From positions 11,870 through 75,869 of IMG/VR virus record IMGVR_UViG_3300025086_000015: a stretch of DNA of 64,000 bases; one strand, given 5' to 3'. Shown one piece after another: positions 16,195-52,400 of this stretch (within the stretch, counting starts at the first letter, position 1; the number at the start of each line of letters is the position of its first letter). The notes under the pieces were generated by a model, which saw only the letters and a program-made list of their open reading frames with translations, had not been told where the DNA came from and made no database searches. The translations under genes and the position numbers were made by a program. This DNA comes from a virus.

Positions 16195-16358
16195 TAAAAA
16201 GTTTAATAAAAAAAATAAAATAACTAAAAAATTTTTTTTGGGGTTTATTTGTGAGCGTACGGACCTCCTCAAAACAACACCCCGTCTTGTAATAGGGTTT
16301 GCAAGCACCCCCTATTAAAGCCAAAAGATGGCTTTAATTTAATTAAATACTTAATCAA

Positions 16359-16565
16359 ATGGCACAAACTTATGACAAGAATGGTAAGTGGTCTAAGACC
16401 ACAACATTCACAACACCTTCGGGTTGGCACATCAGCACTTCGTTATCTCACACTAAAGGTGAGACTGATGTTAAAAAGTCTCAAGACTTTACTAAACTTG
16501 ATGAATTACCAGAGGAAATTCAACAAGGCATCATGGATGGTACTCTTTCAATAAAATTGAAATAG
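16359..16565 (+). CDS. First early gene, hypothetical protein
   Basis: 68 aa; A-rich leader; followed by its own terminator. Confidence 0.65.
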   Translation: MAQTYDKNGKWSKTTTFTTPSGWHISTSLSHTKGETDVKKSQDFTKLDELPEEIQQGIMDGTLSIKLK

Positions 16566-16569
16566 CACT

Positions 16570-16591
16570 AAAGGGACTTTGTCCCTTTTTT
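16570..16591 (+). terminator. Rho-independent terminator
   Basis: AAAGGGAC-TTT-GTCCCTTTTTT. Confidence 0.75.
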
Positions 16592-16598
16592 AATATAT

Positions 16599-16655
16599 AT
16601 GGTAGTAATCAATTTGTAGTTGTGAGTGTGGCTTCGTGGTCACATTCACTACTAT
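16599..16655 (+). other. Long imperfect hairpin
   Basis: GTGAGTGTGGC/GTCACATTCAC stem containing G-U pairs, closed by ATGGT/ACCAT. Confidence 0.5.
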
Positions 16656-16711
16656 TTCCACCATTTATACAATCAATCAAATCGTTAACATTATAATAAT
16701 ATAACACTAAC

Positions 16712-16831
16712 ATGAAAACACTACTTATATTACTATTAGTAGCAGTATTCTTTGGCAGCTGCGCATCAACTTGCCAATATTCTAATAGTCATTCATATAA
16801 AATGAGAAATAATTGTGCAGCATATAGATAG
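16712..16831 (+). CDS. 39 aa lipoprotein (below the ORF-track cutoff)
   Basis: MKTLLILLLVAVFFGSCASTCQYSNSHSYKMRNNCAAYR: signal peptide with FGS-C lipobox; A-rich leader. Confidence 0.65.
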   Translation: MKTLLILLLVAVFFGSCASTCQYSNSHSYKMRNNCAAYR

Positions 16832-16841
16832 TACAAAACAT

Positions 16842-16930
16842 AAATAACAAGGTTTATGATGTGAAATTCATCTCGTGGCCTCTTGACCAATCAGCCGTTA
16901 AATGCGGTAATAGATAGAGACTTGTTATTT
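16842..16930 (+). ncRNA. Structured element D1: long stem capped by a four-way junction
   Basis: AAATAACAAG/CTTGTTATTT and GTTTAT/ATAGAT stems, then three hairpins GATG/CATC, TGG/CCA and GCCGT/GCGGT. Confidence 0.5.
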
Positions 16931-16934
16931 TTAT

Positions 16935-17011
16935 TAGAAAGCATAAACATTAAATTGGGTATGAACATGGAGGTAGACACTATGCAGGTGTTCACATGTT
17001 CTAACTTTCTA
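16935..17011 (+). ncRNA. Structured element D2
   Basis: Nested stems TAGAAAG/CTTTCTA, GAACATG/CATGTTC and GACAC/GTGTT. Confidence 0.4.
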
Positions 17012-17018
17012 TATACAT

Positions 17019-17094
17019 AAATAAAGAATAGTAGAACGTCTTGGATAACAACCTGCAGTGGTAAACCGTAAGGCATGTGGACTATTCTTTATTT
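17019..17094 (+). ncRNA. Structured element D3: 14 bp stem capped by a four-way junction
   Basis: AAATAAAGAATAGT/ACTATTCTTTATTT and ACGT/ATGT stems; small hairpins TTG/CAA, ACC/GGT and CC-GTAA-GG. Confidence 0.5.
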
Positions 17095-17099
17095 TAAAA

Positions 17100-17496
17100 T
17101 ACAGTTGTAAGGTATTTATAGATAAACCTTGTTTTCTAGATAAACAAAACTAATCTTGACACTGATTGACTTGCAAGCAATCACCTATCTGGTTTAAAGA
17201 AGAAACTTTGATTTCATTCTTTACCGTGGATTTAAAATGGTAAACGTGTCCTAAAATATGGATGTGTGTCCATACTGATGATTCCAAAAGGATGAATTTA
17301 GAAAGATTTTGGGGCTTAACCCGATAAGTATAGTAATATACTTAAAGACATAGTGTGGAATCTATGTTGCCAGCAATGGTCAATTTAAGCAAGCAGGATA
17401 CTACACGGCACCAATGGACAAATGTCTGAGGGTATGTGTATCGCTTCTATTTTAGTTGGAGTGATGAGCTAGTGATAGCAATAGGAAATAACTGTA
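17100..17496 (+). ncRNA. Large structured ncRNA candidate D4 (~400 nt)
   Basis: Closing stem TACAGTTGT/ATAACTGTA; more than 10 nested helices; GNRA loops (GTAA, GCAA); no ORF in the track. Confidence 0.6.
17251..17301 (+). ncRNA. Hammerhead-ribozyme-like three-way junction (type III topology, variant core)
   Basis: CTAAA-A-TATGGAT(GTGT)GTCCATA-CTGATGA-TTCC(AAAA)GGAT-GAA-TTTAG. Confidence 0.55.
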
Positions 17497-17500
17497 GATT

Positions 17501-17993
17501 TAGTTTTGAGTTAACTGTCGAGTTAATAAAGAGTATAAATCAGTATGATGGGCAATCTTAGGGAATAAGATATAACCTGAAATACCATAACGATGAAAAG
17601 TTATACTTGAGTAGTTTAGTATTTTGTCTCTCAAAAGGAGGCGAAACTAATGAATAACCGCTACTTGAACCATAAATAATAACAATATTTATACAACTAA
17701 AAAAGAACAAGTGTTGTTCCGTTAAACATTGAAAGATGACTAAGTCTGAACACGTATGCGTATGTGAATTCAGTTGCATTGATCCCTCAAGGTGATATGT
17801 ATTTCAAGTGAAAGTCAGGTATGGGCCCTAGAACCCATCACCTCGTATGAGTAGTTTGTGAGTAAATGTTTATTGTTAAGAGTGGTTAGCTATACTAACC
17901 GTCATTACACAATACTATTGGAGACGATAGTGGATACGTTGCTAACTCATAAGGCAACAAAAGATGTGTACTATTAGCTATAATCTCAGGCTA
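17501..17993 (+). ncRNA. Large structured ncRNA candidate D5 (~490 nt)
   Basis: Long-range stems TAGTTTTGAG/CTCAGGCTA, AGTTAATA/TATTAGCT, GATGGG/CCCATC, ACCTGA/TCAGGT and GAAATAC/GTATTTC; many local hairpins, some with GAAA/GAGA loops. Confidence 0.6.
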
Positions 17994-18022
17994 TATTTTA
18001 TTAACCTTTTAATCTAAATACT

Positions 18023-18160
18023 ATGAACAACAAGAAATTACTCAAGAATATAACTTGGGAGCTCAAAAGAGCTGAAAAATATTGTACAATATCAATGATA
18101 CTAAATGTATTATTTATATTAATAATAGCAATACAAGCAATTCAATTATATATTAACTAA
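18023..18160 (+). CDS. 45 aa single-pass membrane protein
   Basis: MNNKKLLKNITWELKRAEKYCTISMILNVLFILIIAIQAIQLYIN; CTAAATACT leader. Confidence 0.55.
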   Translation: MNNKKLLKNITWELKRAEKYCTISMILNVLFILIIAIQAIQLYIN

Positions 18161-38247: not shown

Positions 38248-41200
38248 TTAATACCTGTCGTATTTGTATTGATCACTAGTTTCAAAAGTTTTAGCAAATG
38301 CATTTAAACCAGGTATCATTTTAAAAGTATAGTGGAATCTATTATTTCTATCTCTATTACTATCTTCTCCTAATAGATCATCTCTCATCTCGTCTACAGT
38401 ATTACTACTAAGTTTCATAACTTCTCTACCTAAAGATAGTAATGGTATACCTGTAGCCCTTCCTGATTCTAAGAATTCTTGTGGTTGTGTAAATACTGCA
38501 ACTTCACGATAAGTTCTATTTACTACTGCGTATAGTTTTCTACCCGCATAACTTTGTCTTATATCAATTTTACCATCATCATCATAATCTCCACCCATTA
38601 ACATTAGTAATGACATAAATAATAATGTTAATCTCATTTCCATTAAATGTGCTCTAATATTTGCTCTTTTCATTTCAAGGTAATCTTGAAACATCGCCTC
38701 TCTTTGAGAAAGATCTTTAAGTCTATCGCTGAATTCTGGATTGTCTGCATTATTAGCGGCCCATTGATCAAACTTAGCACGAGCTAAATCTTCTTTTATT
38801 TTAAATTGATTAGTAAGTCCAAATGTAATAACATCTGTTCCAATATTTACTAGATCTTTTCCTAATACTCCTACATAATCTAGTAAAGCAACTTCCTTAT
38901 CTAGTGCCTCTGCAGGTCCCATAACTTCGCTAAGCCCTAAGTTACCCCAAGTGCTCATCCATGTACCCTCATCAAATGTTTTTAGTATATTATCATATCT
39001 CTGTCTACCAAACCTTTCCATTGCTATACCTGGCAGCCAAGATTTATAGTGCATCATAAATCTCATTAATAGTGTATTGTTATACAATGCTATATCTTCA
39101 TCAGTCATTGTACCTTTTACTTTATCACTTATACGTCTAGTTACATTACGAAAATGTCTTTCTTGTTTTTCAGTCATCCCTGGTATAGTAACTATATACC
39201 TATCTACTGCTTTGTTAGATATATTAGTTGCTGTACCTTCCCAAGCAGGATTTTCTTTAATCTCCATTAACTCTAGAAGAGATTTTGTTCCTTCTGGTAA
39301 TTTAGAGAGTACTTCTACTTCATTAGTTTCAGGATCTAACCCATAATTCTGTGCAAGACTATATATTACAGTAGCATCAATACCACGGTCAGCGGTAGAT
39401 AAAAATGAGAACCATTTATCATTAGTCATATGCCTTGTAACATAATTAGCTGATAAAGTATCTGCTCTATTTTGAGCATCATCTCTTTGATAAATCATAA
39501 AATGCTCTGCTAATGCTCTCATTTTAGGATCTGCCTTCATTAAAGCGCCTTGAGCTGTTTTTAAAGCTTTTTTAGTAATAAACCTACCTTTTGCTGCTTG
39601 TTGGTATAATCCAAATTGTCCTGCAAAAAATGCACCTGCTGCTACTGGCATTTTTATACCAAGCGCCATCATCGAGTGATATTGTTTTAAAGCTAATACT
39701 GTTTTAAGTCCACTTAGTTTTCCTATTTTGAAATCCTTAGCATCTAAAGTATTTCCAAAAAAGTATTGATCAATATATCCTGTAAACACGTCTGCATTAC
39801 TTCTAGTTTCAAATAACTTCCTAGTAGCTCCAGATAATGTAGGTATCACATTACCAAATGCATCTGTATCAATTTCTTTAGATACATTATCTTTTAAAAG
39901 TTGTTCCATTGCCATTACTTCGGGGAGAACTTCCATTTTCATTTTATAGTCTGTTGCTGCATTTAAAAGTAATAATAAACCTTTACCTAAATCTCTACTT
40001 TTTAAAGAAGGGTCTACGTTACCATTTGCATCTACAATAGGCCTAATAAATAATTTAGGTATTTTTCTAATAAGTTTACCAGTATTTTCATCTCTTAAAC
40101 CTAGAGATAAGTCATGTTCTCTTACTTGTAAATTCTCAAGTATTGCATCCATACCCAATTTGTGAGTCCCATTTTGTTGGTGCTCTAGCATATCTTTACT
40201 AATATTAGCTATAAAGTTTGGTCCTAATGTTTGGCCAAACATTTCTTCTATTAATCTAATTTTATCTTGGTAGTATTCATAGAATTCTCTTAAAGCTGGA
40301 TTAGCTTGTATTCTACCATATTCTTCAGTTAACCATTTTTCATTTGGCTTTAAAAAATATTTACCCCCTAAAGATACAGAAGCTGTATTATAGAATTTTA
40401 CAATATCATGCTGTTTATCCCAAGCAAGTAATTCTCTTGTTATAGCTTTATCATTTTTACCGTATTTTCTTTTTAGAAATTTTTCTTTATTTTTTCTATA
40501 AGTTTTAAAATTCTTATCATAAGCTTCTTGATTTATAACAGTATTTTCTTTCATCCACTTATACTCTCCTTTTTGTATAGCTCTATCTTTACCTTCGTAA
40601 TATTCTGTTTGATATTTAGCAACAAAGTTTCCAGTTTTATTATTAATTAAAGGAGCGAAAGCTTCGATTGGATTAGATCCTGTATATTGAGAAAGAATAG
40701 CATCTTGTAACGCTTGTATTTCTCCTGCAGCTTGCTTTATAGATTTTCTTCTACCATAGTTTAGTTCATCTACAATTTCCCACAAGTTTCTTAAGTACGG
40801 ATTATTTTGCTTTGATAGAGTTACAAAAGATCCCGTCATATAGTCAATACCTGGGTTGTAATTTTTAATACCTTTAACTCCTCTTTCATTAGCTTTCTCT
40901 GCAACACGGTCCCTAATCTTTGATTCTATCATAGACTGTGCATTTGTAACTGTTCTCCCTACTTCTTCTTGTAATTTAACTGTTTTAGCATATTCTGTAG
41001 GGTTGTTTTTTTGAAGATCTGCCATGTAATCATCTAACCTGAATAGATTCTTATAGAATATTAAATCATTATTTAAATCAACTAATTCTTCCATTGTTAA
41101 ATACATTGGATTAGCATCCCCTAATTTAGTAGTAGGATCATTTTCTTGAATCTTCTTTTCTATATCTTTTAGATCTCTTTTAAGATTATTTAATACATAT

Positions 41201-43419
41201 GCTACATCTTGGTTTAACTGTAGCTTACGCAATTGTTTCTCCATTCTCTCTTTAGCAGCTTTAGCTTTTTCAAAAGTTTCACCAACTTGAAAGTTTTTGT
41301 TTCGTAATCTCTCTTCTACTTGTTTTTTACGGCTTATAAGTTTTACTATTGTATCATTAACTTTATCGAAATCTGTCATTTCTTCAGCTACAGGTATTTG
41401 CTCTAAGAACTCACTAAATTTAGCGCCCATTTGAACAGTAGTAATGTTGCTAGTCATACCTCCTTGGGTATTATACTTATATCTAACATGTATAGGCACA
41501 ATTCTAGATTGTCTTACTTTAGATATACCGTATTCATTTAAAAGTGTTTGTTTATAGGCCCCCATTTGTATGTTATAGGTATCCATTTTTACAGCAAATG
41601 GGTCATTAACTATTTTATATTGACCTCCCATATATTTAACGTATCCAGCTTCTATTGATGGAGATACAAATTTATAATCATAAATACCTGCAGTTCCATC
41701 ACTATACAATACTAATAAATCTATAGTACCTCCAGTTTCAGCTCCTGAATCAATTATTAATTGCTCTGTTTTAAATACTGCCTTACCGTTTGTATTGTTT
41801 TCTTCGTTTATTCTTTTTTGCTGTGCTTTACTTTGTGCAATAATATCTTTAATTCCATTTTCAATTCTTTTAAATTGAAATTCATTAAATGGAGAGTTGG
41901 CTAGAATTTGTGATCTAGACCCTTTACCATTTGCATATAATTCTACTAAGTCTTGCATAGTAGCATGTCCAGCGGTACCTGTTTCTTTTCTTATGTTCTC
42001 TGTAGAGATTCTTCTTTTTCGTTGCTCATCCGTTTCAGGTCTTTTAGCAATTTTCATTGAGTAAAAATATTTCTTTACTTCATCAGAAACCCTACCTTTA
42101 ATTACTACTCCTTCATACGGTGTTCCCGGTTTACCTACATATCTTTCTAGCTTATCACTTCCTGGTTCTACGATCCATTTTTCTTTTATACCTTGCTCTT
42201 CAGCACTAACTTGATCTAAGATATAAGATTGTGTAGTTTTATCTAATTTTTCTAGAATAGTTTCTCTAGGGTCATCTACAGTTCTAGTATCCATTTCGTA
42301 ATATTCCCCAGCTTCTAATCCGCCCATTTGCTTTTCAGCGTTTAAATAGGTGCTAGCACTTTCACTTAGCATAATATATGCTGCTCTAGAGTATGGATCT
42401 CTAGTTACTTTTGCAAAAAAGTTTCTAACTGCTTGCAGCACTCTTTCAAACCACGTTTTAGCCCTATCCATCTGTGCTGGAGAGTCATTTCCTTGTATGT
42501 TCTTTACTAGTTGCTGTGCAATAAGTTTTCCCACAGCTTCTTTTTTCAATTTATTTACATCTCCTTGATATGCTTCTTGGTATCTTGGATCATTTACCAC
42601 ATCATCGTATACACTGTACCTTTCTATGTTATTCATCATAGAGGTAAATAATGGGTTACCGCTAGAACTTAAAAGTTCTACAAAAAAGTGAGCTGCTTCT
42701 TCTGGTAATGTATCTATTCCTGCTTTATTATTTATTACTTGAACTACTTTTCTGAGCATGTCTGCTTTTGCAACAGCATTTATTAATTTACCTTCTTTGT
42801 TTCTTATTTCACTTACAGATTCTACTTTAACCCCAATACTATCTAGAAAATTACGTATAGATTGATCTATTTGTTTGTCGGCTTTTTGCAGTACTTCATT
42901 TTCCATTTGATGGTAAATACTATCTGGATTTAAATTAGTACTTACACTTAAATGTATAATATCTCCTTTAAAATCTTTACCTACTGTAGCGTATATACCA
43001 GGGTATTCTTTTTCAATTCTTTCAGCAAGTTGGTAAGCCCCATAAGGAATATTAATCGCTGCTCCACTAGGAGTTCTTAATTTAAATCTTTCATTAATTC
43101 TATCTATCAACTCAGATGACCTAGGATTGTTAAAACTTCCTAAGTTTTCTGTAGCATGCTTTATTGTTTTATCTTCAGCTATAAATACTGGATCACCATT
43201 TACATTAACAATTCTAGGCTCTCCATTAGAGTCTACATCACCTGCTTGAAACCAATTTTTAAATGTAGGTGTATAAGTTACAGCCCATTTTTTTAAAGCA
43301 GCTTCTTTATCTAGACCTAACTCAACTATACTATTAAAAAGTTTAGATGTTTTACCATTCTCTGCAACTACTTTATCAATTTCCTGATTAACAGGGTTTC
43401 TATATACTGTACATGCCAT
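38248..43419 (-). CDS. Giant virion cargo protein with metallopeptidase-like and PD-(D/E)xK nuclease domains
   Basis: 1723 aa; TPTFKNWF...DSNGEP, EEAAHFFV, GTAGHATMQ...GGTIDLLV...IYDYKF...QMGAYK; hydrophobic C-terminal helices. Confidence 0.75.
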   Translation of the reverse strand: MACTVYRNPVNQEIDKVVAENGKTSKLFNSIVELGLDKEAALKKWAVTYTPTFKNWFQAGDVDSNGEPRIVNVNGDPVFIAEDKTIKHATENLGSFNNPRSSELIDRINERFKLRTPSGAAINIPYGAYQLAERIEKEYPGIYATVGKDFKGDIIHLSVSTNLNPDSIYHQMENEVLQKADKQIDQSIRNFLDSIGVKVESVSEIRNKEGKLINAVAKADMLRKVVQVINNKAGIDTLPEEAAHFFVELLSSSGNPLFTSMMNNIERYSVYDDVVNDPRYQEAYQGDVNKLKKEAVGKLIAQQLVKNIQGNDSPAQMDRAKTWFERVLQAVRNFFAKVTRDPYSRAAYIMLSESASTYLNAEKQMGGLEAGEYYEMDTRTVDDPRETILEKLDKTTQSYILDQVSAEEQGIKEKWIVEPGSDKLERYVGKPGTPYEGVVIKGRVSDEVKKYFYSMKIAKRPETDEQRKRRISTENIRKETGTAGHATMQDLVELYANGKGSRSQILANSPFNEFQFKRIENGIKDIIAQSKAQQKRINEENNTNGKAVFKTEQLIIDSGAETGGTIDLLVLYSDGTAGIYDYKFVSPSIEAGYVKYMGGQYKIVNDPFAVKMDTYNIQMGAYKQTLLNEYGISKVRQSRIVPIHVRYKYNTQGGMTSNITTVQMGAKFSEFLEQIPVAEEMTDFDKVNDTIVKLISRKKQVEERLRNKNFQVGETFEKAKAAKERMEKQLRKLQLNQDVAYVLNNLKRDLKDIEKKIQENDPTTKLGDANPMYLTMEELVDLNNDLIFYKNLFRLDDYMADLQKNNPTEYAKTVKLQEEVGRTVTNAQSMIESKIRDRVAEKANERGVKGIKNYNPGIDYMTGSFVTLSKQNNPYLRNLWEIVDELNYGRRKSIKQAAGEIQALQDAILSQYTGSNPIEAFAPLINNKTGNFVAKYQTEYYEGKDRAIQKGEYKWMKENTVINQEAYDKNFKTYRKNKEKFLKRKYGKNDKAITRELLAWDKQHDIVKFYNTASVSLGGKYFLKPNEKWLTEEYGRIQANPALREFYEYYQDKIRLIEEMFGQTLGPNFIANISKDMLEHQQNGTHKLGMDAILENLQVREHDLSLGLRDENTGKLIRKIPKLFIRPIVDANGNVDPSLKSRDLGKGLLLLLNAATDYKMKMEVLPEVMAMEQLLKDNVSKEIDTDAFGNVIPTLSGATRKLFETRSNADVFTGYIDQYFFGNTLDAKDFKIGKLSGLKTVLALKQYHSMMALGIKMPVAAGAFFAGQFGLYQQAAKGRFITKKALKTAQGALMKADPKMRALAEHFMIYQRDDAQNRADTLSANYVTRHMTNDKWFSFLSTADRGIDATVIYSLAQNYGLDPETNEVEVLSKLPEGTKSLLELMEIKENPAWEGTATNISNKAVDRYIVTIPGMTEKQERHFRNVTRRISDKVKGTMTDEDIALYNNTLLMRFMMHYKSWLPGIAMERFGRQRYDNILKTFDEGTWMSTWGNLGLSEVMGPAEALDKEVALLDYVGVLGKDLVNIGTDVITFGLTNQFKIKEDLARAKFDQWAANNADNPEFSDRLKDLSQREAMFQDYLEMKRANIRAHLMEMRLTLLFMSLLMLMGGDYDDDGKIDIRQSYAGRKLYAVVNRTYREVAVFTQPQEFLESGRATGIPLLSLGREVMKLSSNTVDEMRDDLLGEDSNRDRNNRFHYTFKMIPGLNAFAKTFETSDQYKYDRY

Positions 43420-43424
43420 ATTTA

Positions 43425-46400
43425 TTATTTACTTTTTTTACAATTATCTTTTTCCTTAAGAACTTGATTAACTTCGTTAGAAATTGCATCTTTACTTTTA
43501 AATAATTGCTCTGTTCCTTGTTGTCTTGTAGGATCGTAACCAAAGTCATCATAAGAATCTTTGGTAGTATAGTTGCTTGAATCTAAAGTTGTTGCTCTGT
43601 ACAAAACTACACTTTTTCTGTCAACTAATTGTTTATTAGCTTTAGCTTTTTTAGCTGCTTCCCAATTTCTATACCCCATTGCTACTGCTAACTCTTCTAA
43701 TCCTTCTCTGCCTTTAAGGGTAAGTCCAGCTGCTATAGCTTTTTTAGAGCCTTTATAAATATCATTAATACTTAATGTACCTATTATATCTAAGTGTACT
43801 CTCGCATCCCCATTAGTTAAATACATTCCGCTTGGCATAAGTGTTTTTGCTATAATTACAGCGCTTCCTACTTTATCTAAAACTTGTTCAGTGCCTTTAG
43901 ATATGTCTAATGTATCAAGTCCAAATTTAGATACATTTGATTTTAATAAAGAATCTGTATTAGATTCAATTAAATTCATACCCATACCTCTTTTAGGTAT
44001 TGCAGTAAACACATTCATAGAAGGTGTTTTTTTAGATGGTCCTGTATTTATAAATAGTTTAGTTTCGTACACAGGCTTTGTTATACTACCAACTGTTTTA
44101 ACTGCCCCAGTAGGTGCTGATATACTAACATATTCATGTTGTGAATTATGAATTATGGTACCATCTTTAAATGATTGTTTTCTTTTTTCATTTATTCTAT
44201 AAGGTAACCTTGGAACTATCTTGCCGTCTGATGAAGAATTTTGTATAAAATCTTCCCAAACATTATCTAAGTTTAAATTAAACTCTTCTGAATATCTATT
44301 AAAATATGGAGAGATTATATTTAATACTTCAGTACTTGGCAGCACTTGAAAAAATGCATTAGGACTAAAGTGGAATCCAGATTGTAACACACTAAATTCA
44401 ACTAAGTCTTTAGCTAATTGAGGTGCAATCTCTTGTAATTCTAAATACGAGTCTGATAATAAATCAATATCAAATGTTTGTAATTTTTTACTAAACAGCT
44501 TCATATTATCTATGCTGTATTCAGGATGCTTTGGATCTTGGAACGTTTGAAGTAGAGGATATAACTCTTGTATTAATAGATTATCTTTCAATCTTGGAGA
44601 ACCCTTAGCTGCTAAAATTCTTCTAGGTAAACTATTGTCTCCTCTAAATAAACTACTTATTTTGTTTTTTAAGTACGATCTCTGTAAAGGTGTATTTTGT
44701 ACTATATAAGAAGATAGATGAGAGTCAAATCTTTTCATTACATATCCTATTTCATCAGCGCTTCTTCTTAATGTTGGATTTGTTAACTCGTATATTTTAT
44801 CATATGTCCATTTAGAAATATATGGGTGGTATTCTTTCATATCTAATGAAGAGAACATTTTAGAACCTGCATCAAACCCTTCTCTAAAAGCAGACATAAG
44901 TGAGTATTTCCCATTTTGATTATAAATTAAATTATCTACATTTACAAATGCTTGTGTGTCTTCTACTCTTGCTAGTGCTGCTTTCATGTATTTTATAGCT
45001 GTAGGGCCACTTAATTTACTAGTATCAAATTTAGTAGCTGTTGTTAGTAAGAATAAAAAATCTGCGTATTCTTGATACCTTATAAAATCATCTAAAATTT
45101 GACTTTGCATTTGTTTTTCAACACGGCTTAACTCAGAAATATCTTTTCCAACCATATCTTTTAAAACATCAGCATTAAATTTAACAGGCTCTGATTCAGG
45201 CCTTGCTCCATATTTTGTTTTTAATGTAGAATACATATCTTCTTTACCCATGTAAGATTTACCTCCACTATATTGAGCAGCTAAAGATCTTTGAGTTTCA
45301 TTTAGATTTACATAGTCATCTATAATTGGCTGTGACATAAAGTATGCAACTTGGTCTAACGGAACTCCCGATCTAACTAACATCATATGTATTGGTGCAT
45401 ATTCTACACCAGCATTAATATCAAATACAAAATCTTCTTTCGTTACATCAACATACCCGGTAACGTACTGAGCTAAAACAGAAGATATTTTCATTCCACC
45501 ATTTACATCACTAACTCTAGATAAAGAGTATCCTGTTCCTGCAAAGTTTAATTGTAGATCTATTTCAGGGCTCCAATCTAGCCCCGCTCTTTGTGCTTTA
45601 GCGTGTTGTGTTGCTGTTACAGCTACAATACCTACACCCCCTAAACCAGACCACATACGGTAAGAAGTGTTAACTAAATTTCCAAAGCTTAATTTTTTAT
45701 TAAACATGGTAGATTGGCCTTTACCTTTACCTCTCTTATCTCTAAGTGCAGCAATTTCTCTTGCTACATTCTTAACTTCAAATGCACCAACAGGCGTTAT
45801 AAGCTGATCAAAACTTTGTGGATTTTCTAAAACAGTTTTAATTATTTCTTGTACTCTATTTTGTAAAGCTACTTGTATATTTTGGTCAGATATTGGAAGC
45901 TTACTGAATTGACTTAAAGTCAAATCTCTAGGCTCTTCTTGCTTCATAACTTCATACCTTTCTTCAACTGTTGAATTTTCATCTGTTAAATAAGGTATTC
46001 TAGAAACAGTATTACTTTCTTCATTATATGTATAGTTAGGGAAGTATAGAGTTAATTTATCAATATCATAATCCGATCCAGACTTTCCTACTATTTCAGA
46101 AGGTACTATAATTGTAGACCCCGCTGATGGTGGTAGGTATCCTACTACTTCTATAAAATCTATAGAATTTAATCCCTCTGTAGGAATACGGAATCCTATT
46201 AATTGCTTAAGTCCTTCATCAATATTATTGGCATCTATTAAGTTACCTAAACCTAACTCTTTAAATCTATGCGGAAGCATTACCTGCATAGCTAATGTTT
46301 TGTCTTTTCCAGGTCTGTAGAACTTTAAAGGTTTAAGCATAGCTATATCGATGTTATCTTTATTTGCTTGCTCGTAATCTTTTTGTTTTATTGCTCTTGC

Positions 46401-49400
46401 TTGAATCTCTAAACCGGTTGCAGCTTGTAATACCATCATATCACCAGGCATCTTTCTTTTGATAACTGAGTTTGTTACAATAGCATATAGTATTGATTCT
46501 ATTTTATCTCTTTCAAATAATTGATTTATAAATGGATTATCACTTTTAAGCAATGCTAATATACCGTTCTTTGTGTGCATTGGCATATCACGCTTATCAA
46601 GCTCTGATATAATAGCATCAGATAGAACTTTCATATCTTTAGCTAAATATCTCCCATCATCTTGCATTTCAAGATTTAATCTTTTAGTAAGTTTTTCTAT
46701 ATCTCTCTTAATTAGTTGATAACTAACTTCGTGATATTCGTCGATTACACTTTCCAGACCCGCTTCTTTATATACTTCACTAACCTGTCCATTTTCATAT
46801 ATATTTATAGGAAGCAATGATGTAAGCTGTGTTCCTGCAGATACTTTGTTTTTTATTTTAGGTGCTATCTCTACTTGTATTCCTACTTGAGAAAAATCAA
46901 ACTCTAATAATCCTAAAGGCTCTCCATCTTCTTCAGATAATTCCATCGGCTTGTAACTTGAGTAGTTACCATCTTCTTGATAAAAAGAATCAAAGTTTTG
47001 ACCATCGATTGTAGGAGCCCCCACTTTAACTACAGAGTTAAATACCATATAGTCTATATCATTATCAACCATATCTTGATTAATATCATCATAAGTTCTA
47101 CCTGGCATTAATTGAGGTATTAATGGGAACAATGCAAATTTGTGGAATGTCATAAGTCTTACATTATCCTCTATAAAAGGAGCAAATACTTGCGGCTTTA
47201 ATGCTGGGAAATATGCTAAGTCTTCATTGGCTATAGTATCACCATTCATTATTTTTTGATACAAGTTTTCTTGTGCATCAGTCCATTTACCTGCTCTCCA
47301 CAATAAACTTCTATAAGCATCTAAATGCATAAATCCACCGCCATCAAACTCATCCATGTTATTATAAGTTTGCTCTAAAATATTTTCACCCTTTTCATTT
47401 AAATTATCTAACATGCTAGGGTTTAATACTCTCACAACATCTATATAATCTTGTAAATACGGAGAATCTACTTTAACATCTCCTCTAACGACTGTCTTTA
47501 TTTTAGAAGAATGCTCTTTATTCATACCTAAATTTTCCATATTGTTATTCATCCACTCTAATAAGTGTGGGTCAGATGATGGGTAAATTTTAGTACCTGA
47601 TACTCCTGAAGTTCTTTTAAATAGATCTTTATACAATGCTAAGTCACCTAAAAATAATTTACTTTGTTCAATAACACCAGTCATGTGCTCATATGTTAAT
47701 TGTTCTGAGAGAACTCTAACAGTACTTGGCATTAAAGTAGATGTGTCTGTAGTATTGTCTTGTGACACCATTTTTAGTTTAGATACTAATTGGCTATTAA
47801 TACCTACATTATACGAGCTTCCTTGTTTGCCCGGTCTAATGATATTAAAATCTAGTAATGAATTAGTAACCTCTTGAACTCGTACTTCTAAAAATTCATT
47901 AAGTTTTGACTCTACTTCTGGACTAGAAACGATCTGTGCTATCTTTTCATCTGAAAGTTTTTTAGATAAATCTTTACGGCTAATATCAATTATACCTTTA
48001 AAGAATCTAAGTTCCCCTCCTTGATCTGCATAGTTTTCTATTCTCCTTAACTTACTTGTTTTATTTGAATTAAATATAGTTGCAGTTTTTATTTCATCAA
48101 ATAGGTATCCCTGAAGCCTTTTTACCATATCTTGTTTAGATAAAGTTAAACTAGCAGGAACTCCAAAGCCTATTCCATACTCTGTTTTTTTATCTGCTGT
48201 TCTTATAAACGGCATAATACCATTCCCTAATATAGCGTTAACTTGCATACCTGCTATATCAGACGGTGTGCTTTTAGATAATCCTTTACTTCTACCAAAC
48301 TCTTGTTTTATATCTTCTAAGACTGATATTTCTAATTTTCTACCTTGCTGTGCCATACCCTGTAAGTATACAGAATTAGCTAAGTTAGCATGACCTAATA
48401 ATTCTACTACTCTTTCAGGATTGTTATTTAATTCTGAAGCCGTTACATCTAAATGATTCTTTAGACTAATTCCATAAACTTTTTTACCTGCTGCATTTAT
48501 ATGGATTAAATCTACAGCGTAGTTTGTTTTTTCTATCTCTACATTCATTAAGACTTTTAACCTACCTTGTATGTCTCCCTCGTATAAATCGCTTATTGGA
48601 TTTGATAATACTTCATTCAATGTCCAAGTTACAGCATCTTTAATCTCATTACTGTCCTCATATTTCTCCATAAACGCTGGAGTATCTGAAAATTTAATTC
48701 CTATAGCAGATAATAAAGCCGCTGCTTGTAGAGAGTCTTTTGGAACTTTAGACCACTCTTCTAAAGATTTTGTTACTTTATTGATTGTAACTTTAGCATT
48801 TTTATCTACTACCATTTTACCATCTTTAAGAACACCTACACCATCTATAATAGATTTTCTAAAGTTTAATTTCCATGTATTTCTAACAAGATCATCTATT
48901 CTACTAGAATTATTATCCAGTAAAAATCTACCTCCTTGTCTATCTATAGATTGCATATGGAAAGTTCTATTAGCTTGATTAAATTGTTGAACAACTCTAG
49001 TAATCATTCTAACTTGAGGTCCAGTTTTATCTGACCAGTCATTAGTACTTAAACCTAATCTTTTAACAAGCATTTTTAACTCAGGTCTAGTTTGAGTAAG
49101 CTCTAATAGTTCTTCTACTATAAACTCAGGATCTGTATTAGCTAGCTCTTTGTATAAAAAGGCCATAGTTGAACCAAAATCTACTAGTTTTGGGAATCCG
49201 CTATTATTATATACTAATTGTCTTTTACCATTTATTTCTTGTGTTGCAGGTAGCGTAGATATTAATAATCTAACCGGATGTGGTAAAGTTAAATTAGGAT
49301 CTATTTCTGATTGCGCAGTATCAAACCCTACTCCAGTTCGCTCATCTTCACTTATCTCTAGATCATCTAGTATTTCCATTTTGAATCTTTGTAAATACGC

Positions 49401-52400
49401 TTTATGCTGATCTTGGAAAAACTCCCAATTACTTTTAATTAATCCTCTTGTATTTTGTACTTTATTTATTTGATCTTGTACAAATTCTTTTTGTGTTTTA
49501 CTTTTAGCTACTGCTAACTGCTGCTGAAGAGCTGTTTCTCTGTTCTGTAGAGACCCTAGCATTTTATTATATACAGTATTAGACTGTCCAGGTCCCCCGT
49601 AAAGACTGTTAATTGCAGAACTTACCTTATCTTGTTTAGATGTATCAAATATATCTTCTATTTCAAATAATCCTTTTTCAGCTGCTAAATGGAATAGCTG
49701 TACTGTCATTCCTTCTACAGTATTATTTATTAAGGTAGGGCTAATTGCTGCACCTTCCATGTAAGCTTCCTCATTTGAATCGTACAAAGTAATTTCTGTT
49801 GTAGGATTTGCAAAGTATCCTCCATGTATTTTAGACATTAAGTTTTCTACTCCAGATGTAGAGTCTGTAAAGAAATTTAAAGCTGCAAATATTTTATCAA
49901 ATAATCTATCTAACCAAGATTTTTTTACATTTTGACCTACTCTGTAATCTCCATCAGCTAAAACATACGCTCTAAACTCTTCAGCTAACCACTCATCTAT
50001 CTCTCTATCTGTAAACTCAGATAATTTTTTAACATCTCCTTTAAATGTTCTAGCAGTCCCTCTAAGCTTTCTAGCTTCGTCATACATCTTAAACCTATCC
50101 TCTTTAGAAATAAGCCTTCTAGTAACACCATGCCATGTTTCATGGTACACTACACCATCTACATCCATTTCACTAGATAATAATATATTACCATCTTTAG
50201 TGAACTTACCGTATCCTTTACCGTCTATAAGACCTTTTACTAAATTGATACCAATTAATGGATTTCCATTTTTATCTTTAGGCATATTAGCATTAAACCA
50301 TTTAAGTTGTCCGTCTAGGTCTACTAGCTGTTCATTTTCAAATTCTACAGAAGACTTTAATAAAAATGGAGAATCATCTTCCGCATCCTCATCTTTATTA
50401 GGATCATAGTTAGTAAACGGACTGTTTTCCATATTTTGTTTACCTTGATCCATATTTACTTTTTGAATAACTTTTGATTCTTGTGTAGGAACTAAGGCGC
50501 CTCTAAGAGCTTCAGCTATACCCGCCGGAAGATCTTTACCTTTAGCTACATTAATTATACCTTCAAAAATTACATTACCTTCGTTGTCTAAAACTTGAAC
50601 TGGAGTAGGCTTTAACTGTTCTTCTACAATTTTTGAAGCTTCTTCCTCAGTCATTAATGATTTTTCTGTAGTGGTTACTACAACTTCTCCTGTATCTGTT
50701 ACTGTAGCCTCAACTACAGTTGGTGAATTTTCTTCCGCATTCTCTTGATTTTCTATCCCATTTAATATTTCATCTTTTGTTTCAGGATTACCATTATGCT
50801 TAAGATACATATTCATAAATTGTGGTACTGTACTTTGCTCAACGTCTTTAGATTGCGAAGAGTCTAAGTTCATATTTACTGTTACTGGAATATCCGTTAT
50901 GTCTCTACCTTTAGTAGATAATAAATACTCTGTGTAATTTGCCCACTCTATTGTTTCTACTTCTAGATCATTATTTACTATAACTTCTACATGCGCTTCA
51001 TACTCAGGAGGGAAGTTTTTCTTTTTAGCATATAGTTTAGCTTTTCCTTTAGCTGCTTTTATTGCTTTTGATTTAGCAGCAGTTGCTGAAGTTCTAGCTT
51101 TCTCATCACGTCCTAACCTAGTACTATTAGCATTATGTATAAGTAAAGGTAAAAACTCTAAAAGCTCAGTGTGCTCCGCTGCATACTGCTTAGGATCTGA
51201 TAATTGCTCTAAAGTAATTTTTTGTCCTTTGTTTCCATAGTGTATAGCGTCTGTTTCTAGCCAAATAGAATACTCTTTTAATTTTCTATCCTTAGCTTGC
51301 TTACCAAAAAATATCATTTCAGACAATATAGTAGTAAGTCCTTTGCCTCCAATTAGAGCAGCTTCTTCTCCACTCATCTGATCTTGTGCCACTAACTTTT
51401 GTCTAGTAGCAAATAGTCTTAATAGATTGTAAACATTATTTTGCGCATTTTCTCCTAAGTTTTGAGGCCATCCTCTAACTAGGTTACCTTTAATTCCAGA
51501 CATACCTGGTTTAGATAAGTATAAAAATCCGTTTGGAACATTCCATGAGTTCCCACCAATATTTATATTAGCTCTACTTTCACCCTTTGTTCCTAAAGCT
51601 GCTTTAAGTTGGATGTCTTGCACATGTTTTTCATCTTGAACTAATCTCCCTAAAACAGACCCTCTAGATTGAGGATTACCGTTTTCCCAAATAGTCATAC
51701 TTTTTGACTTTCCAGATATTCTATAGTACAAAGGAACCTGCGCAGTTAATAGCTTTTGTCTATCTTCACTATGTCTATCTGAAACTTCTTTAACAGCTGC
51801 TTTTATAGAGCCATCTTCATTTAAATCTCTATCTACATTGTATCTATACTCTCCTTCTGGGCCTGTTAATTTAGCAGTAGGCATATCAGTATATGCTAGT
51901 TTACCATCAATCAATACAGGATTAAGATCTTTATCTACAAGAACAAGTTTTATGTTTTCATTTTCTTCAGTTGTAGCATCTTTAAGGTCTTTTAAATATA
52001 CAAACTTTTTAGTGTAGTCTATATCTCCAGTATTAGAGTCAAAAAATATTATTTGATCCTGCAGCTCAGCAGGAATATTATTTCTATGTATAACCATTAA
52101 TCTGTTTCCAGATTTCTTTGACCAATCAGTTACATTCTCAGTAGCTCTAAAGAATCTCATTTGAGACATTACATGCTCGTAGTGCATTTTTTCAGATTCT
52201 GTTAAATCTCTCTCTGCTAATATTTCTTGATAATCTGCAAATGCTGTAAGAGCTGCTTTATGATTTCCAGCTGTTTTTGTAAAAGGAATATCTAAAATAC
52301 TAGGTCTGTTGTTATCAGTAACACCATTGTCAGACCATAACTGATCATCTGTATATTCTACATTTATATTTGTATTTTTTCCTTTGTCGTCTCTAACCTC

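What the first reader, a model, noticed from the sequence alone, without database searches (positions are those of the whole stretch)
17100..17496. D4: ~400 nt ornate multi-junction RNA
Seen: terminal helix TACAGTTGT/ATAACTGTA. Inner helices are AAGGT/ACCTT, AATC/GATT, GACAC/GTGTC, TGATTG/CAATCA, TTACCGT/ATGGTAA, TTGGG/CCCGA, TAAGTATA-GTAA-TATACTTA, GACATAG/CTATGTT, GCCA-GCAA-TGGT, AAGC/GCTT, GATAC/GTATC and CTATT/AATAG. Most of the sequence can be assigned to nested helices. It lacks the ends or cores of tRNA, tmRNA or RNase P that I can recognise. Inference: a novel or diverged large ncRNA class.
Basis: partly seen in the sequence, partly recalled or inferred. Interest (0 to 1): 0.78.

Follow-up and report, generated by a model that had tools for sequence, protein, structure and literature searches.

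The report
Hammerhead-led front half of GOLLD RNA
The stretch is not a new RNA class but the front half of a GOLLD RNA (a known giant phage RNA that builds RNA-only cages), here preceded by a self-cutting hammerhead ribozyme that probably trims its front end.

Summary
Window 17100-17496 is not a self-contained new RNA. Rfam places a full-length GOLLD 3' domain at 17607-17992 (+), 222 bits. Rfam does not model the GOLLD 5' domain, and the finding lies on it.

The part 17309-17606 is the conserved GOLLD 5' core:
- It sits just 5' of the 3' domain in all 102 GOLLD loci that hold upstream sequence.
- A covariance model built only from 58 other GOLLDs hits the window once, at 17390-17498 (E 1e-9).
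- Its helices covary.

The part 17109-17301 is a lineage-specific leader ending in a type III hammerhead ribozyme (17251-17301). A 31-member marine-phage hammerhead family supports its three stems by covariation. The window copy has a swapped U15.1-A16.1 pair.

Two metagenome contigs carry the same hammerhead-GOLLD junction with a canonical core.

Its closing helix 17100/17488 does not: its 3' strand pairs with 17393-17396, and such helices arise by chance.

This scan has noted hammerhead-led GOLLDs before on other DNA (AI notes, not tested here). My searches of the open paper library found no report of the arrangement.

The parts
17109..17150 (+). Leader: two small hairpins (AAGGU...ACCUU, GUUUU...AAAAC). 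The real 5' end of the primary transcript is unknown.
   Evidence: Nearly identical in L323, L324, L150, L094 and similar in L313. A 34-nt word from it occurs only in the window's own record, L094 and L150 among 288 loci. No covariation, because it is almost invariant. No convincing promoter was found.
17158..17250 (+). Three-way junction closed by GACAC/GUGUC and abutting hammerhead stem III. It holds the hairpin TGAUUG/CAAUCA, an AAAG/CUUU hairpin, and the window/L323-only hairpin UUACCGU/AUGGUAA.
   Evidence: Alignments A4, A5, A8 and iterated nhmmer. The closing helix is invariant in 8 of 8. The inner hairpin is replaced by other hairpins in relatives. A second leader type (L137 group) has GACUCU/AGAGUC at the same place. 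Other members of the hammerhead family have a GC-rich hairpin at this position.
17251..17301 (+). Type III hammerhead ribozyme variant. Stem III is 17251-55/17297-301 and H17 is A17256. Stem I is 17257-62/17269-74. The core CUGAUGA is 17275-81. Stem II is 17282-85/17290-93. GAA is 17294-96. The predicted cut lies between 17256 and 17257. The window copy has U15.1-A16.1 and U10.1/U11.1.
Evidence: Rfam Hammerhead_3 aligns full length but scores 24.2 bits against a cut-off of 48.5. In 31 distinct family members, 93.8% of cells are paired against 64.3% shuffled, and 137 cells changed on both sides against 38 shuffled; 0 of 500 shuffles reach this. A15.1-U16.1 is present in 27 of 31.
17309..17606 (+). 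Conserved core of the GOLLD 5' domain. It includes hairpin 17311-13/17320-22, whose loop 17314-19 pairs with 17385-90 (pseudoknot), the GNRA hairpin 17325-44, hairpins 17347-68 and 17369-80, and the helix-closed sub-domain 17390-17498 (closing helix 17393-96/17492-95).
   Evidence: Nine-sequence alifold: 87 pairs, 15 with compensatory changes. 77-sequence alifold. Loop-linker pairing of 6 bp in 71 of 71 sequences, with nine sequence variants. Model R1, built from 58 other GOLLDs only, hits 17390-17498 at 44.1 bits, E 1e-9, the single hit in 64 kb. Iterated nhmmer finds the core in 102 of 102 GOLLD loci with upstream sequence.
17607..17996 (+). GOLLD 3' domain, the part that Rfam RF02032 models. 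Conservation among relatives stops at about 17996.
   Evidence: cmscan gives 222.4 bits (cut-off 150), E 1.2e-61, model positions 1-416 of 416, at 17607-17992. The alignment of 9 relatives loses conservation right after 17996. Contigs from RNA libraries join the two domains: X1 covers 17280-17925 with 0 differences.

Best explanation
The finding covers the front of a single GOLLD RNA gene on the + strand, about 17109-17996, in a marine phage distantly related to crAss-like phages. In order, the gene holds: a lineage-specific leader (two small hairpins and a three-way junction, 17109-17250); a type III hammerhead ribozyme variant (17251-17301); the conserved core of the GOLLD 5' domain (17309-17606); and the Rfam-modelled GOLLD 3' domain (17607-17992). 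Shown here: the identity of the 3' domain; the homology and covariation of the 5' core; the covariation of the three hammerhead stems in a family of 31 sequences; and the recurrence of the hammerhead-GOLLD junction in two further, diverged contigs. Inferred: the hammerhead cuts the transcript between A17256 and U17257. That would discard the leader and leave a GOLLD of about 740 nt with a 5'-OH end that still carries hammerhead stems I and II. This would do the job that flanking tRNAs (cut by RNase P and Z) may do for GOLLDs in tRNA islands. Inferred by homology only: the mature RNA assembles, like GOLLD env-38, into an RNA-only multimeric cage in which the 5' domains form the caps. What the cage does is unknown.
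For: The GOLLD 3' domain is at 17607-17992, 222.4 bits, full model. Kretsch et al. 2025 (PMC12286853, passages read) put the env-38 5' region at nt 1-420 and the 3' region at 421-833. They call the 5' region less conserved and a separate domain, which fits a model of 416 positions that starts at 17607. Eight close relatives share 17310-17996. Iterated nhmmer seeded with that core finds it directly 5' of the 3' domain in 102 of 102 loci that hold upstream sequence. The 10 loci with a 3' domain but no core are all cut within 122 nt of it. Model R1, built without any sequence of the window's clade, hits 17390-17498 at E 1e-9. Eight of 8 loci of the group R1 was built from (five of them in its seed) are Rfam GOLLDs at 270-328 bits. 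Covariation. Hammerhead: exact CUGAUGA...GAA core, H17 = A, three stems, a full-length alignment to Hammerhead_3, and family covariation reached by 0 of 500 shuffles. L323 (94% identical) and L324 (80% identical) have the same junction with canonical A15.1-U16.1. The window differs from L323 by paired changes in stems I and III. Perreault et al. 2011 (PMC3088659, passages read) report that a natural U15.1-A16.1 hammerhead cleaves, less efficiently, and that U10.1-U11.1 is the best tolerated mismatch. RNA-library contigs cover 17280-17991 and bridge the domain border.
Against: An HMM built from the main GOLLD group alone does not find the window at E <= 10. The sequence link therefore runs through intermediates and needed the structure-aware model. 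The hammerhead is far below Rfam's cut-off: 24.2 against 48.5 bits, with E 0.0014 only for an 86-nt search. It was not listed in the 1.8-kb or whole-window scans. L324's canonical copy gets only an 18.3-bit partial HH9 match. The window copy lacks the A15.1-U16.1 pair, which the strict consensus requires, and has a U-U at 10.1-11.1. Thermodynamic folding of 17100-17310 does not give the hammerhead fold and is no better than shuffles (z -1.21). Only 3 records show the hammerhead-GOLLD junction. Of 96 GOLLD loci with at least 150 nt upstream, only the window has a hammerhead core next to the 5' core, so the ribozyme is not a general GOLLD feature in this sample. Cleavage was not observed: contigs cannot show RNA ends, and the X1 contig starts at 17280, not 17257. 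There is no tRNA in the window, unlike many GOLLD loci. Cage assembly is inferred for a divergent member whose distance from core start to 3' domain is about 100 nt shorter: 280-300 nt in 15 loci against 360-390 nt in 77 loci.
Confidence: 0.75

Rival explanations
1. It is the same GOLLD gene, but the hammerhead copy in this window is a crippled relic. The RNA is not cut, and the whole leader (from about 17109) stays on as a variable extension of the GOLLD 5' domain, giving an RNA of about 890 nt.
For: The window copy has the U15.1-A16.1 swap and the U10.1-U11.1 mismatch. Perreault et al. report lower activity for such core variants. The Rfam score is low. GOLLD 5' regions are known to be variable, and at least four different sequences precede the same core in 9 relatives.
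Against: The three stems are kept by paired changes even between the window and its 94%-identical relative L323, which argues for continuing selection on the fold. Four of 31 family members carry the same U-A swap, so it recurs rather than being a single lesion. A natural U15.1-A16.1 hammerhead was shown to cleave.
Confidence: 0.2
2. One reading: 17100-17496 is one self-contained RNA of about 400 nt and of a new class, closed by the helix 17100-17108/17488-17496.
For: The 9-bp helix exists and appears in the minimum-free-energy fold. No Rfam family reaches its cut-off inside 17100-17496.
Against: Conservation and covarying structure continue without a break to 17996. The 3' strand of the helix has a different, covarying partner in 77 of 77 sequences. 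The 5' strand is missing in the 8 relatives with the same core. Helices of this kind are expected by chance. Model R1, built from other GOLLDs, hits 17390-17498. An RNA-library contig runs from 17280 to 17925 across the proposed 3' end.
Confidence: 0.02
3. The near-invariant block 17109-17165 (which includes TCTTGACAC) acts on DNA as a promoter or operator rather than as RNA. The RNA starts inside or after it, so part of the 'leader structure' is not transcribed.
For: The block is almost identical in loci that are otherwise about 70% identical. It contains a TTGACA word. A Bacteroidota-like -7 word (TAATCTTG) can be read at 17150, but this is my reading of the sequence and the consensus is recalled. 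The main GOLLD group has a conserved TTGACA-N17-TAACTT upstream of its 5' domain.
Against: No -10-like hexamer follows TTGACA at 16-18 nt in any of the 8 homologues, read from the alignment. The promoter scan lists nothing there. GACAC is complementary to the equally invariant GUGUC 88 nt downstream, and a second leader type has a different complementary pair at the same place. The word AGGTATTTATAGA does not recur in the window beyond chance: 6 matches against 6.3 expected.
Confidence: 0.1

Closest known systems
GOLLD RNA (Rfam RF02032; first described by Weinberg et al. 2009, which is not held in the library and is recalled; cryo-EM of env-38 by Kretsch et al. 2025, PMC12286853)
   Same: It has a full-length 3' domain above Rfam's cut-off, a 5' core homologous to that of other GOLLDs, and the same order and strand of the two domains. 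It lies in a phage genome and is present in marine RNA libraries. It has the variable A-rich linker after the first 3'-domain hairpin.
   Different: It belongs to a divergent clade: 212-226 bits against 270-328. The distance from the start of the 5' core to the 3' domain is about 100 nt shorter. There is no tRNA or tmRNA nearby, whereas several other GOLLD loci have them. A hammerhead and a leader sit in front. The host phage is distantly crAss-like: PolA is 26-31% identical to crAss-like phages.
Type III hammerhead ribozyme (Rfam RF00008; natural variants in Perreault et al. 2011, PMC3088659)
   Same: It has the CUGAUGA and GAA core, H17 = A, closed stems I and II, and an open stem III. All three stems covary in the family. 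The setting is a phage intergenic region.
   Different: The window copy has U15.1-A16.1 instead of A-U, and U-U at 10.1-11.1. Its score is half of Rfam's cut-off. Stem III abuts a three-way junction. It heads a giant non-coding RNA rather than sitting between protein genes, as most members of its own family do.
ROOL RNA, and GOLLD or ROOL in tRNA islands
   Same: These are large ornate phage RNAs next to elements that give defined RNA ends. tRNAs there and ribozymes here would both allow excision from a longer transcript (context from PMC5737381 and PMC12286853, passages read).
   Different: There is no ROOL match. Processing here would be by the RNA itself and not by RNase P or Z.
Hammerhead-led GOLLD RNAs noted earlier in this scan on other DNA (e1-5822483, e1-6086740, e1-5822509; AI notes, not checked by me)
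   Same: A hammerhead directly in front of a genuine GOLLD, read as the maker of its 5' end.
   Different: Those notes describe giant phages, and at least one calls the ribozyme type I. Here it is a type III hammerhead of a different family in a phage of about 76 kb. In my sample of 96 GOLLD loci it is confined to the window's sub-lineage.

Membership tests
GOLLD RNA | 3' domain matches the Rfam RF02032 covariance model above the gathering score | tested here: met
   222.4 bits against 150, model positions 1-416 of 416, at 17607-17992 +.
GOLLD RNA | A structured 5' domain, homologous to that of other GOLLDs, directly upstream on the same strand | tested here: met
   Model R1, built from 58 other GOLLDs, hits 17390-17498 at E 1e-9. 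The core is found in 102 of 102 loci with upstream sequence. Helices and the pseudoknot covary across the groups. Negative result: the main-group HMM alone finds nothing.
GOLLD RNA | Size of about 800 nt or more | tested here: inconclusive
   About 888 nt from 17109 to 17996, or about 740 nt if cut at 17256/17257. The ends are not mapped, and contigs cannot show them.
GOLLD RNA | Phage or prophage context | tested here: met
   The window lies in an IMG/VR virus record of 75.9 kb, with portal-like, PolA and helicase genes. PolA is nearest to crAss-like phages.
GOLLD RNA | Frequent neighbourhood of tRNA genes (common, not obligatory) | tested here: not met
   0 tRNA or tmRNA genes in 64 kb. Four of the 8 other GOLLD loci tested (L264, L185, L201, L222) have tRNA or tmRNA nearby.
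GOLLD RNA | Assembly into an RNA-only 14-mer cage | not testable with these tools
   Known for env-38 only (PMC12286853). It needs mass photometry or cryo-EM of this RNA.
Hammerhead ribozyme, type III | Core C3 U4 G5 A6 N7 G8 A9 ... G12 A13 A14, and H17 not G | tested here: met
   CUGAUGA at 17275-81, GAA at 17294-96, A17256. These positions are invariant in 31 of 31 family members, but the search pattern itself fixed CUGAUGA and GAA.
Hammerhead ribozyme, type III | A15.1-U16.1 pair | tested here: not met
   The window has U17297-A17255. The pair is A-U in 27 of 31 members, including L323 and L324, and U-A in 4. A natural U-A variant is reported to cleave less efficiently (PMC3088659). I therefore file the window copy as a core variant of a hammerhead family, not as a consensus hammerhead.
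Hammerhead ribozyme, type III | Three helices around the core, supported by covariation; stems I and II closed, stem III open | tested here: met
   There are 15 pairs, 93.8% paired. Ten pairs changed on both sides, and 137 such cells compare with 38 in shuffles (0 of 500 reach it). Slid controls pair 30-44%. Three pairs were fixed by the search pattern.
Hammerhead ribozyme, type III | Score above Rfam's gathering cut-off | tested here: not met
   24.2 against 48.5 bits. L324 gets 18.3 bits on HH9. No hammerhead is listed for L150, L094 or L147 at E <= 1.
Hammerhead ribozyme, type III | Self-cleavage | not testable with these tools
   It needs a transcription and cleavage assay.

The most novel reading that the evidence does not exclude
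In this family of marine phages, one shared 'leader plus hammerhead' module acts as a launch pad for interchangeable large RNAs at the same locus. In the window, L323 and L324 it is fused to a GOLLD. In L150, L094 and L313 it is fused to an uncatalogued, strongly folded RNA of about 360-640 nt that ends in a twister-like ribozyme. GOLLD would then be one cargo among several ribozyme-excised phage RNAs. An exact 5'-OH end, rather than a triphosphate, would be part of how these RNAs mature or assemble, and the unknown cargo RNA may be a further cage-type or ornate RNA class.
Probability: 0.3. Interest if true: 0.7.

Novelty: new variant of a known kind. Interest (0 to 1): 0.45.

Why it matters
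GOLLD is one of the largest bacterial or phage RNAs of unknown function and was recently shown to build an RNA-only 14-mer cage. How its ends are made in cells is not known.

A hammerhead placed 8 nt in front of the conserved 5' core gives a concrete and cheap test: does the ribozyme cut, and does the cage need the cut end?

The same leader-hammerhead module is joined to GOLLD in some phages and to another folded RNA plus a twister-like ribozyme in their relatives. This points to modular, self-processing RNA cassettes in marine crAss-like phages.

It is also a practical warning. Rfam's GOLLD model covers only the 3' domain, so the 5' domain will repeatedly look like a 'novel ornate RNA' to sequence readers.

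Tried and rejected
1. blastn of 16560-18030 against 50,697 phage records found no match.

2. My first pattern for GOLLD loci (15 specified bases) was too loose. Of its 88 stretches only L061 and L002 are GOLLDs by nhmmer. The window itself does not match that pattern, because its spacing is 9 and not 10. The set was dropped.

3. Single-sequence nhmmer of the 5' region against those loci found nothing.

4. An HMM of the 5-sequence 5' region found only the close relatives.

5. An HMM built from the main GOLLD group alone found nothing in the window. It was replaced by the covariance model R1.

6. RNAalifold on the HMM-made alignment of 86 sequences gave only a few helices. I used MAFFT alignments instead. 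There the register of helix 17403-10/17437-44 is off for the window clade, so I do not use it.

7. The promoter scan lists no promoter-like site after 16813, so none just 5' of the RNA, and no terminator-like site after it. The word AGGTATTTATAGA does not recur beyond chance. The 5' end of the primary transcript stays unknown.

8. No RNA-library contig was laid on 16300-17279 or beyond 17991.

9. Folding 17100-17310 alone gave z -1.21 and no hammerhead fold.

10. I looked for a hammerhead in front of other GOLLDs. The type III finder hit 1 of 122. The core regex hit 6 of 96, and five of those lie 240-300 nt upstream at non-conserved places. A resemblance between the main group's sequence just upstream of its core and hammerhead stem II plus GAAAUAA was seen by eye. 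I dropped it because three core positions differ.

11. Protein coding was rejected. Only ORFs of 31-45 aa overlap the stretch, and the substitution pattern is that of paired RNA.

12. Papers:
- Weinberg et al. 2009 is not held, so what I say of it is recalled.
- Wang et al. 2025 (Science) was seen only as a reference.
- One paper search was badly phrased and useless.
The GOLLD alignments in the supplements of PMC12286853 might already show ribozyme-flanked members.
- 'Not in print' rests only on (GOLLD + hammerhead: 3 papers, none on this by listing or passages; GOLLD + self-cleaving: 3 papers, listing only).
Full report
WHAT IS THERE. The stretch lies in a 1.2-kb region without credible genes. 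It sits between a leftward block of structural genes and a rightward block of replication genes in an IMG/VR virus record of 75.9 kb. The record's PolA is nearest, at 26-31% identity, to that of crAss-like phages.

A scan of the whole window against Rfam gives one hit. It is GOLLD (RF02032) at 17607-17992 on the + strand: 222.4 bits against a cut-off of 150, E 1.2e-61, model positions 1-416 of 416.

The finding (17100-17496) ends 110 nt before that hit. According to Kretsch et al. 2025 (PMC12286853, passages read), GOLLD env-38 has a 5' region (nt 1-420) and a 3' region (nt 421-833). These form separate domains, and the 3' region is the universally conserved one. The Rfam model of 416 positions therefore corresponds to the 3' region only. 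A GOLLD 5' domain is expected exactly where the finding lies.

THE OBSERVATION. All 13 complementary word pairs exist where stated. The stretch folds better than shuffles, z about -3.3 on either strand.

I collected relatives in several ways:
- By the neighbouring PolA gene: 334 relatives, of which the best 80 were kept.
- By a 20-nt word of the 5' region: 8 stretches.
- By a junction pattern in metagenomes: 2 stretches.

Eight close relatives share the window's sequence from about 17310 to about 17996, and conservation stops there. On them RNAalifold predicts 87 pairs, 15 with compensatory changes. That count is reached by 0 of 500 shuffles, and slid controls pair 26-44%.

So the local hairpins are real. 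These are UUGGG/CCCGA, UAAGUAUA-GUAA-UAUACUUA, GACAUAG/CUAUGUU, GCCA-GCAA-UGGU and GAUAC/GUAUC.

The closing helix 17100-17108/17488-17496 is not real, for four reasons:
- Its 5' strand is missing in the 8 relatives.
- L324 carries an uncompensated change in it.
- Its 3' strand (17492-17495) pairs with 17393-17396 in 77 of 77 distinct GOLLD sequences, with A-U/G-C, C-G/U-A and G-C/G-U/A-U exchanges.
- Helices of 9 bp at this range occur about 13 times in shuffles of the region.

THE 3' TWO-THIRDS IS THE GOLLD 5' CORE. An HMM of the window clade's 17305-17606, iterated over 122 sequences (121 loci plus the window), converges on 102 of them. In every one the match lies directly 5' of the 3' domain on the same strand. 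The 10 loci that have a 3' domain but no core are all cut off within 122 nt of it. Ten further loci have neither.

Because an iterated search can drift, I tested the link independently. An HMM of the main group alone did not find the window (a negative result). A covariance model did. R1 has 120 positions and 34 pairs, and was built only from 58 main-group sequences of one helix-closed sub-domain. It hits the window exactly once in 64 kb on both strands, at 17390-17498 +, with 44.1 bits and E about 1e-9, over the full model. Eight of 8 main-group loci tested (five of them in R1's seed) are Rfam GOLLDs at 270-328 bits.

The shared motifs appear in the same order in both groups:
- AUAA, then a GNRA hairpin, then UAAAG.
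- CAAGCRGGAUA.
- UGAG, then a hairpin, then CAAUAGGAAUAAC.GUAG.

The 6-nt loop of the first hairpin (17314-17319) is complementary to the 6 nt just before CAAGCRGGAUA (17385-17390) in 71 of 71 sequences, in nine different sequence versions. This is a conserved pseudoknot or long-range helix.

The window's clade is a divergent, shorter form. The distance from core start to 3' domain is 280-300 nt in 15 loci, against 360-390 nt in 77.

THE 5' THIRD IS A LEADER PLUS A HAMMERHEAD. Upstream of about 17310 the 9 relatives carry at least four unrelated sequences. The window's version (17110-17307) is about 71% identical to segments of L150 and L094 and is partly found in L147. None of these three has a GOLLD 3' domain.

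I tested that proposal as follows:
- The sequence has stem III (CUAAA/UUUAG), H17 = A17256, a stem I hairpin, an exact CUGAUGA, a stem II hairpin and GAA.
- Rfam's Hammerhead_3 aligns it full length, but at 24.2 bits against a cut-off of 48.5.
- A pattern of its stem I loop, core and stem II finds 34 stretches in viral contigs.
- With L323, L324 and the earlier loci this gives 31 distinct 57-nt sequences that align without gaps.
- The three stems are 93.8% paired, against 64.3% in shuffles.
- 137 cells changed on both sides, against 38 in shuffles. The covariation score is 0.77 against 0.16. No shuffle of 500 reaches this, and slid controls pair 30-44%.
- Three of the 15 pairs were fixed by my pattern. 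The others were free.

So this is a genuine hammerhead family. A15.1-U16.1 is canonical in 27 of 31 members and swapped to U-A in 4, the window among them.

Perreault et al. 2011 (PMC3088659, passages read) report that a natural U15.1-A16.1 hammerhead self-cleaves less efficiently. They also report that U10.1-U11.1, which the window has too, is the best tolerated mismatch.

Most members of the family sit in short spacers between ORFs and are preceded by a GC-rich hairpin. In the window that place is taken by the three-way junction 17158-17250.

THE JUNCTION RECURS. A pattern spanning the hammerhead core and the first GOLLD hairpin finds two metagenome contigs. L323 is 94% identical over 17093-17583, and L324 is 80% identical over 17093-17571. 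Both end inside the 5' core.

Both have the same leader, a canonical A15.1-U16.1 hammerhead and the GOLLD core. The window differs from L323 by paired changes in stems I and III. The arrangement is thus a small lineage and not an assembly accident.

It is not general, however. Among 96 GOLLD loci with at least 150 nt upstream, only the window has a hammerhead core next to the 5' core. Of 36 hammerhead loci, only L323 and L324 have a GOLLD core.

EXPRESSION. Twenty rows of public runs hold part of the stretch, 18 of them recorded as RNA, from 15 studies. I laid four of them. X1 has a 647-nt contig identical to 17280-17925. X2 covers 17396-17917. X3 has pieces up to 17991. X4 covers 17341-17665. 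These contigs join the 5' core to the 3' domain. They cannot show RNA ends, and DNA carry-over cannot be excluded.

HOW IT MOST LIKELY WORKS. One transcript starts somewhere at or before 17109. Its promoter was not found. It folds its hammerhead and is cut after A17256. The leader leaves, and a GOLLD of about 740 nt remains with a 5'-OH end and with hammerhead stems I and II still attached, 8 nt before the first GOLLD hairpin. By homology with env-38 it then assembles into an RNA-only cage whose caps are made of 5' domains.

Shown: the identities, the covariation and the recurrence. Inferred: cleavage (about 55-60% likely for this variant copy) and cage formation. Function remains unknown, as it does for all GOLLDs.

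COMPARISON AND NOVELTY. This is a member of the GOLLD family, with both domains tested, so the claim of a new class falls. Three things are unusual:
- The type III hammerhead leader.
- The short, divergent 5' domain.
- The host phage type, together with the absence of tRNAs.

Two searches of the open paper library found no paper that links GOLLD with a hammerhead or with self-cleaving ribozymes. Supplements could not be read. This scan has noted hammerhead-led GOLLDs before on other DNA (e1-5822483, e1-6086740, e1-5822509). Those are AI notes that I did not test. They concern giant phages, and at least one concerns a type I hammerhead.

RELATIVES. In relatives, the same leader-hammerhead module precedes a different RNA. 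That RNA is strongly folded (L150 4934-5297, z -5.3) and ends in a twister-P1-like element. The twister hits are below Rfam's cut-off of 67.2 but have E-values down to 3e-10. This suggests a swappable, self-processing RNA cassette at this locus.

Noticed in passing
L150:4877-5352, L094:276-757, L313:8919-9674 (relatives; not in the window): The same leader-hammerhead module is followed not by GOLLD but by an ORF-free RNA of about 360-640 nt and then a twister-P1-like element. The RNA folds strongly (L150 4934-5297: -97 kcal/mol, z -5.3). This is a possible uncatalogued large RNA excised by two ribozymes.
   Followed up: partly
L147:3209-3260, L123:5138-5189, L150:5298-5352 and about 8 further PolA-related loci: Twister-P1 matches lie below Rfam's cut-off (57.0, 54.8 and 37.2 bits against 67.2; E 3e-10 to 1.6e-4). 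An HMM made from them finds 13 loci, some of them the same contig held twice. None is in the window.
   Followed up: partly
window 17012-17098: A long hairpin (14-bp closing stem, then UUUUAAAA) lies just upstream of the leader. It is 97.7% identical to L123:4564-4650, whose flanks are otherwise unrelated, so it looks like another mobile RNA or terminator module.
   Followed up: partly
window 16712-16831 (+): A 39-aa ORF, MKTLLILLLVAVFFGSCASTCQYSNSHSYKMRNNCAAYR, has a lipoprotein-like signal peptide and cysteine. It has no Pfam match.
   Followed up: no
L289-L322 (viral contigs): This is a family of type III hammerheads with a constant stem I loop (UGUGUR) in marine phage contigs. Most sit in spacers of 0-70 nt between ORFs and right after a GC-rich hairpin. 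Two loci (L297, L318) carry two copies each.
   Followed up: partly
main-group GOLLD loci (e.g. L240, L222), about 90-200 nt upstream of the 5' core: A conserved TTGACA-N17-TAACTT promoter-like element and a highly conserved GUUCUUUGAAAAA block precede the main group's 5' domain. The stretch just before their core (…GGAUGAAAUAAA) resembles the stem II/GAAA part of the hammerhead, but the catalytic core is not intact.
   Followed up: no
L174, L176, L170, L137 group against the window, upstream of the position matching 17310: At least four unrelated sequences precede the same GOLLD core in close relatives. In L174 and L176 a gene end and a terminator-like hairpin lie only about 95 nt upstream, so the front of this GOLLD is a recombination hot spot.
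   Followed up: partly
window 43425-56381 (-) and 38248-43419 (-): Giant ORFs of 4318 and 1723 aa fit a crAss-like phage. They were not analysed.
   Followed up: no
L222:5290-5693, L185:9813-10209: Two other GOLLD-bearing viral contigs also encode a tmRNA (110 and 71 bits), and several others carry tRNA clusters.
   Followed up: no
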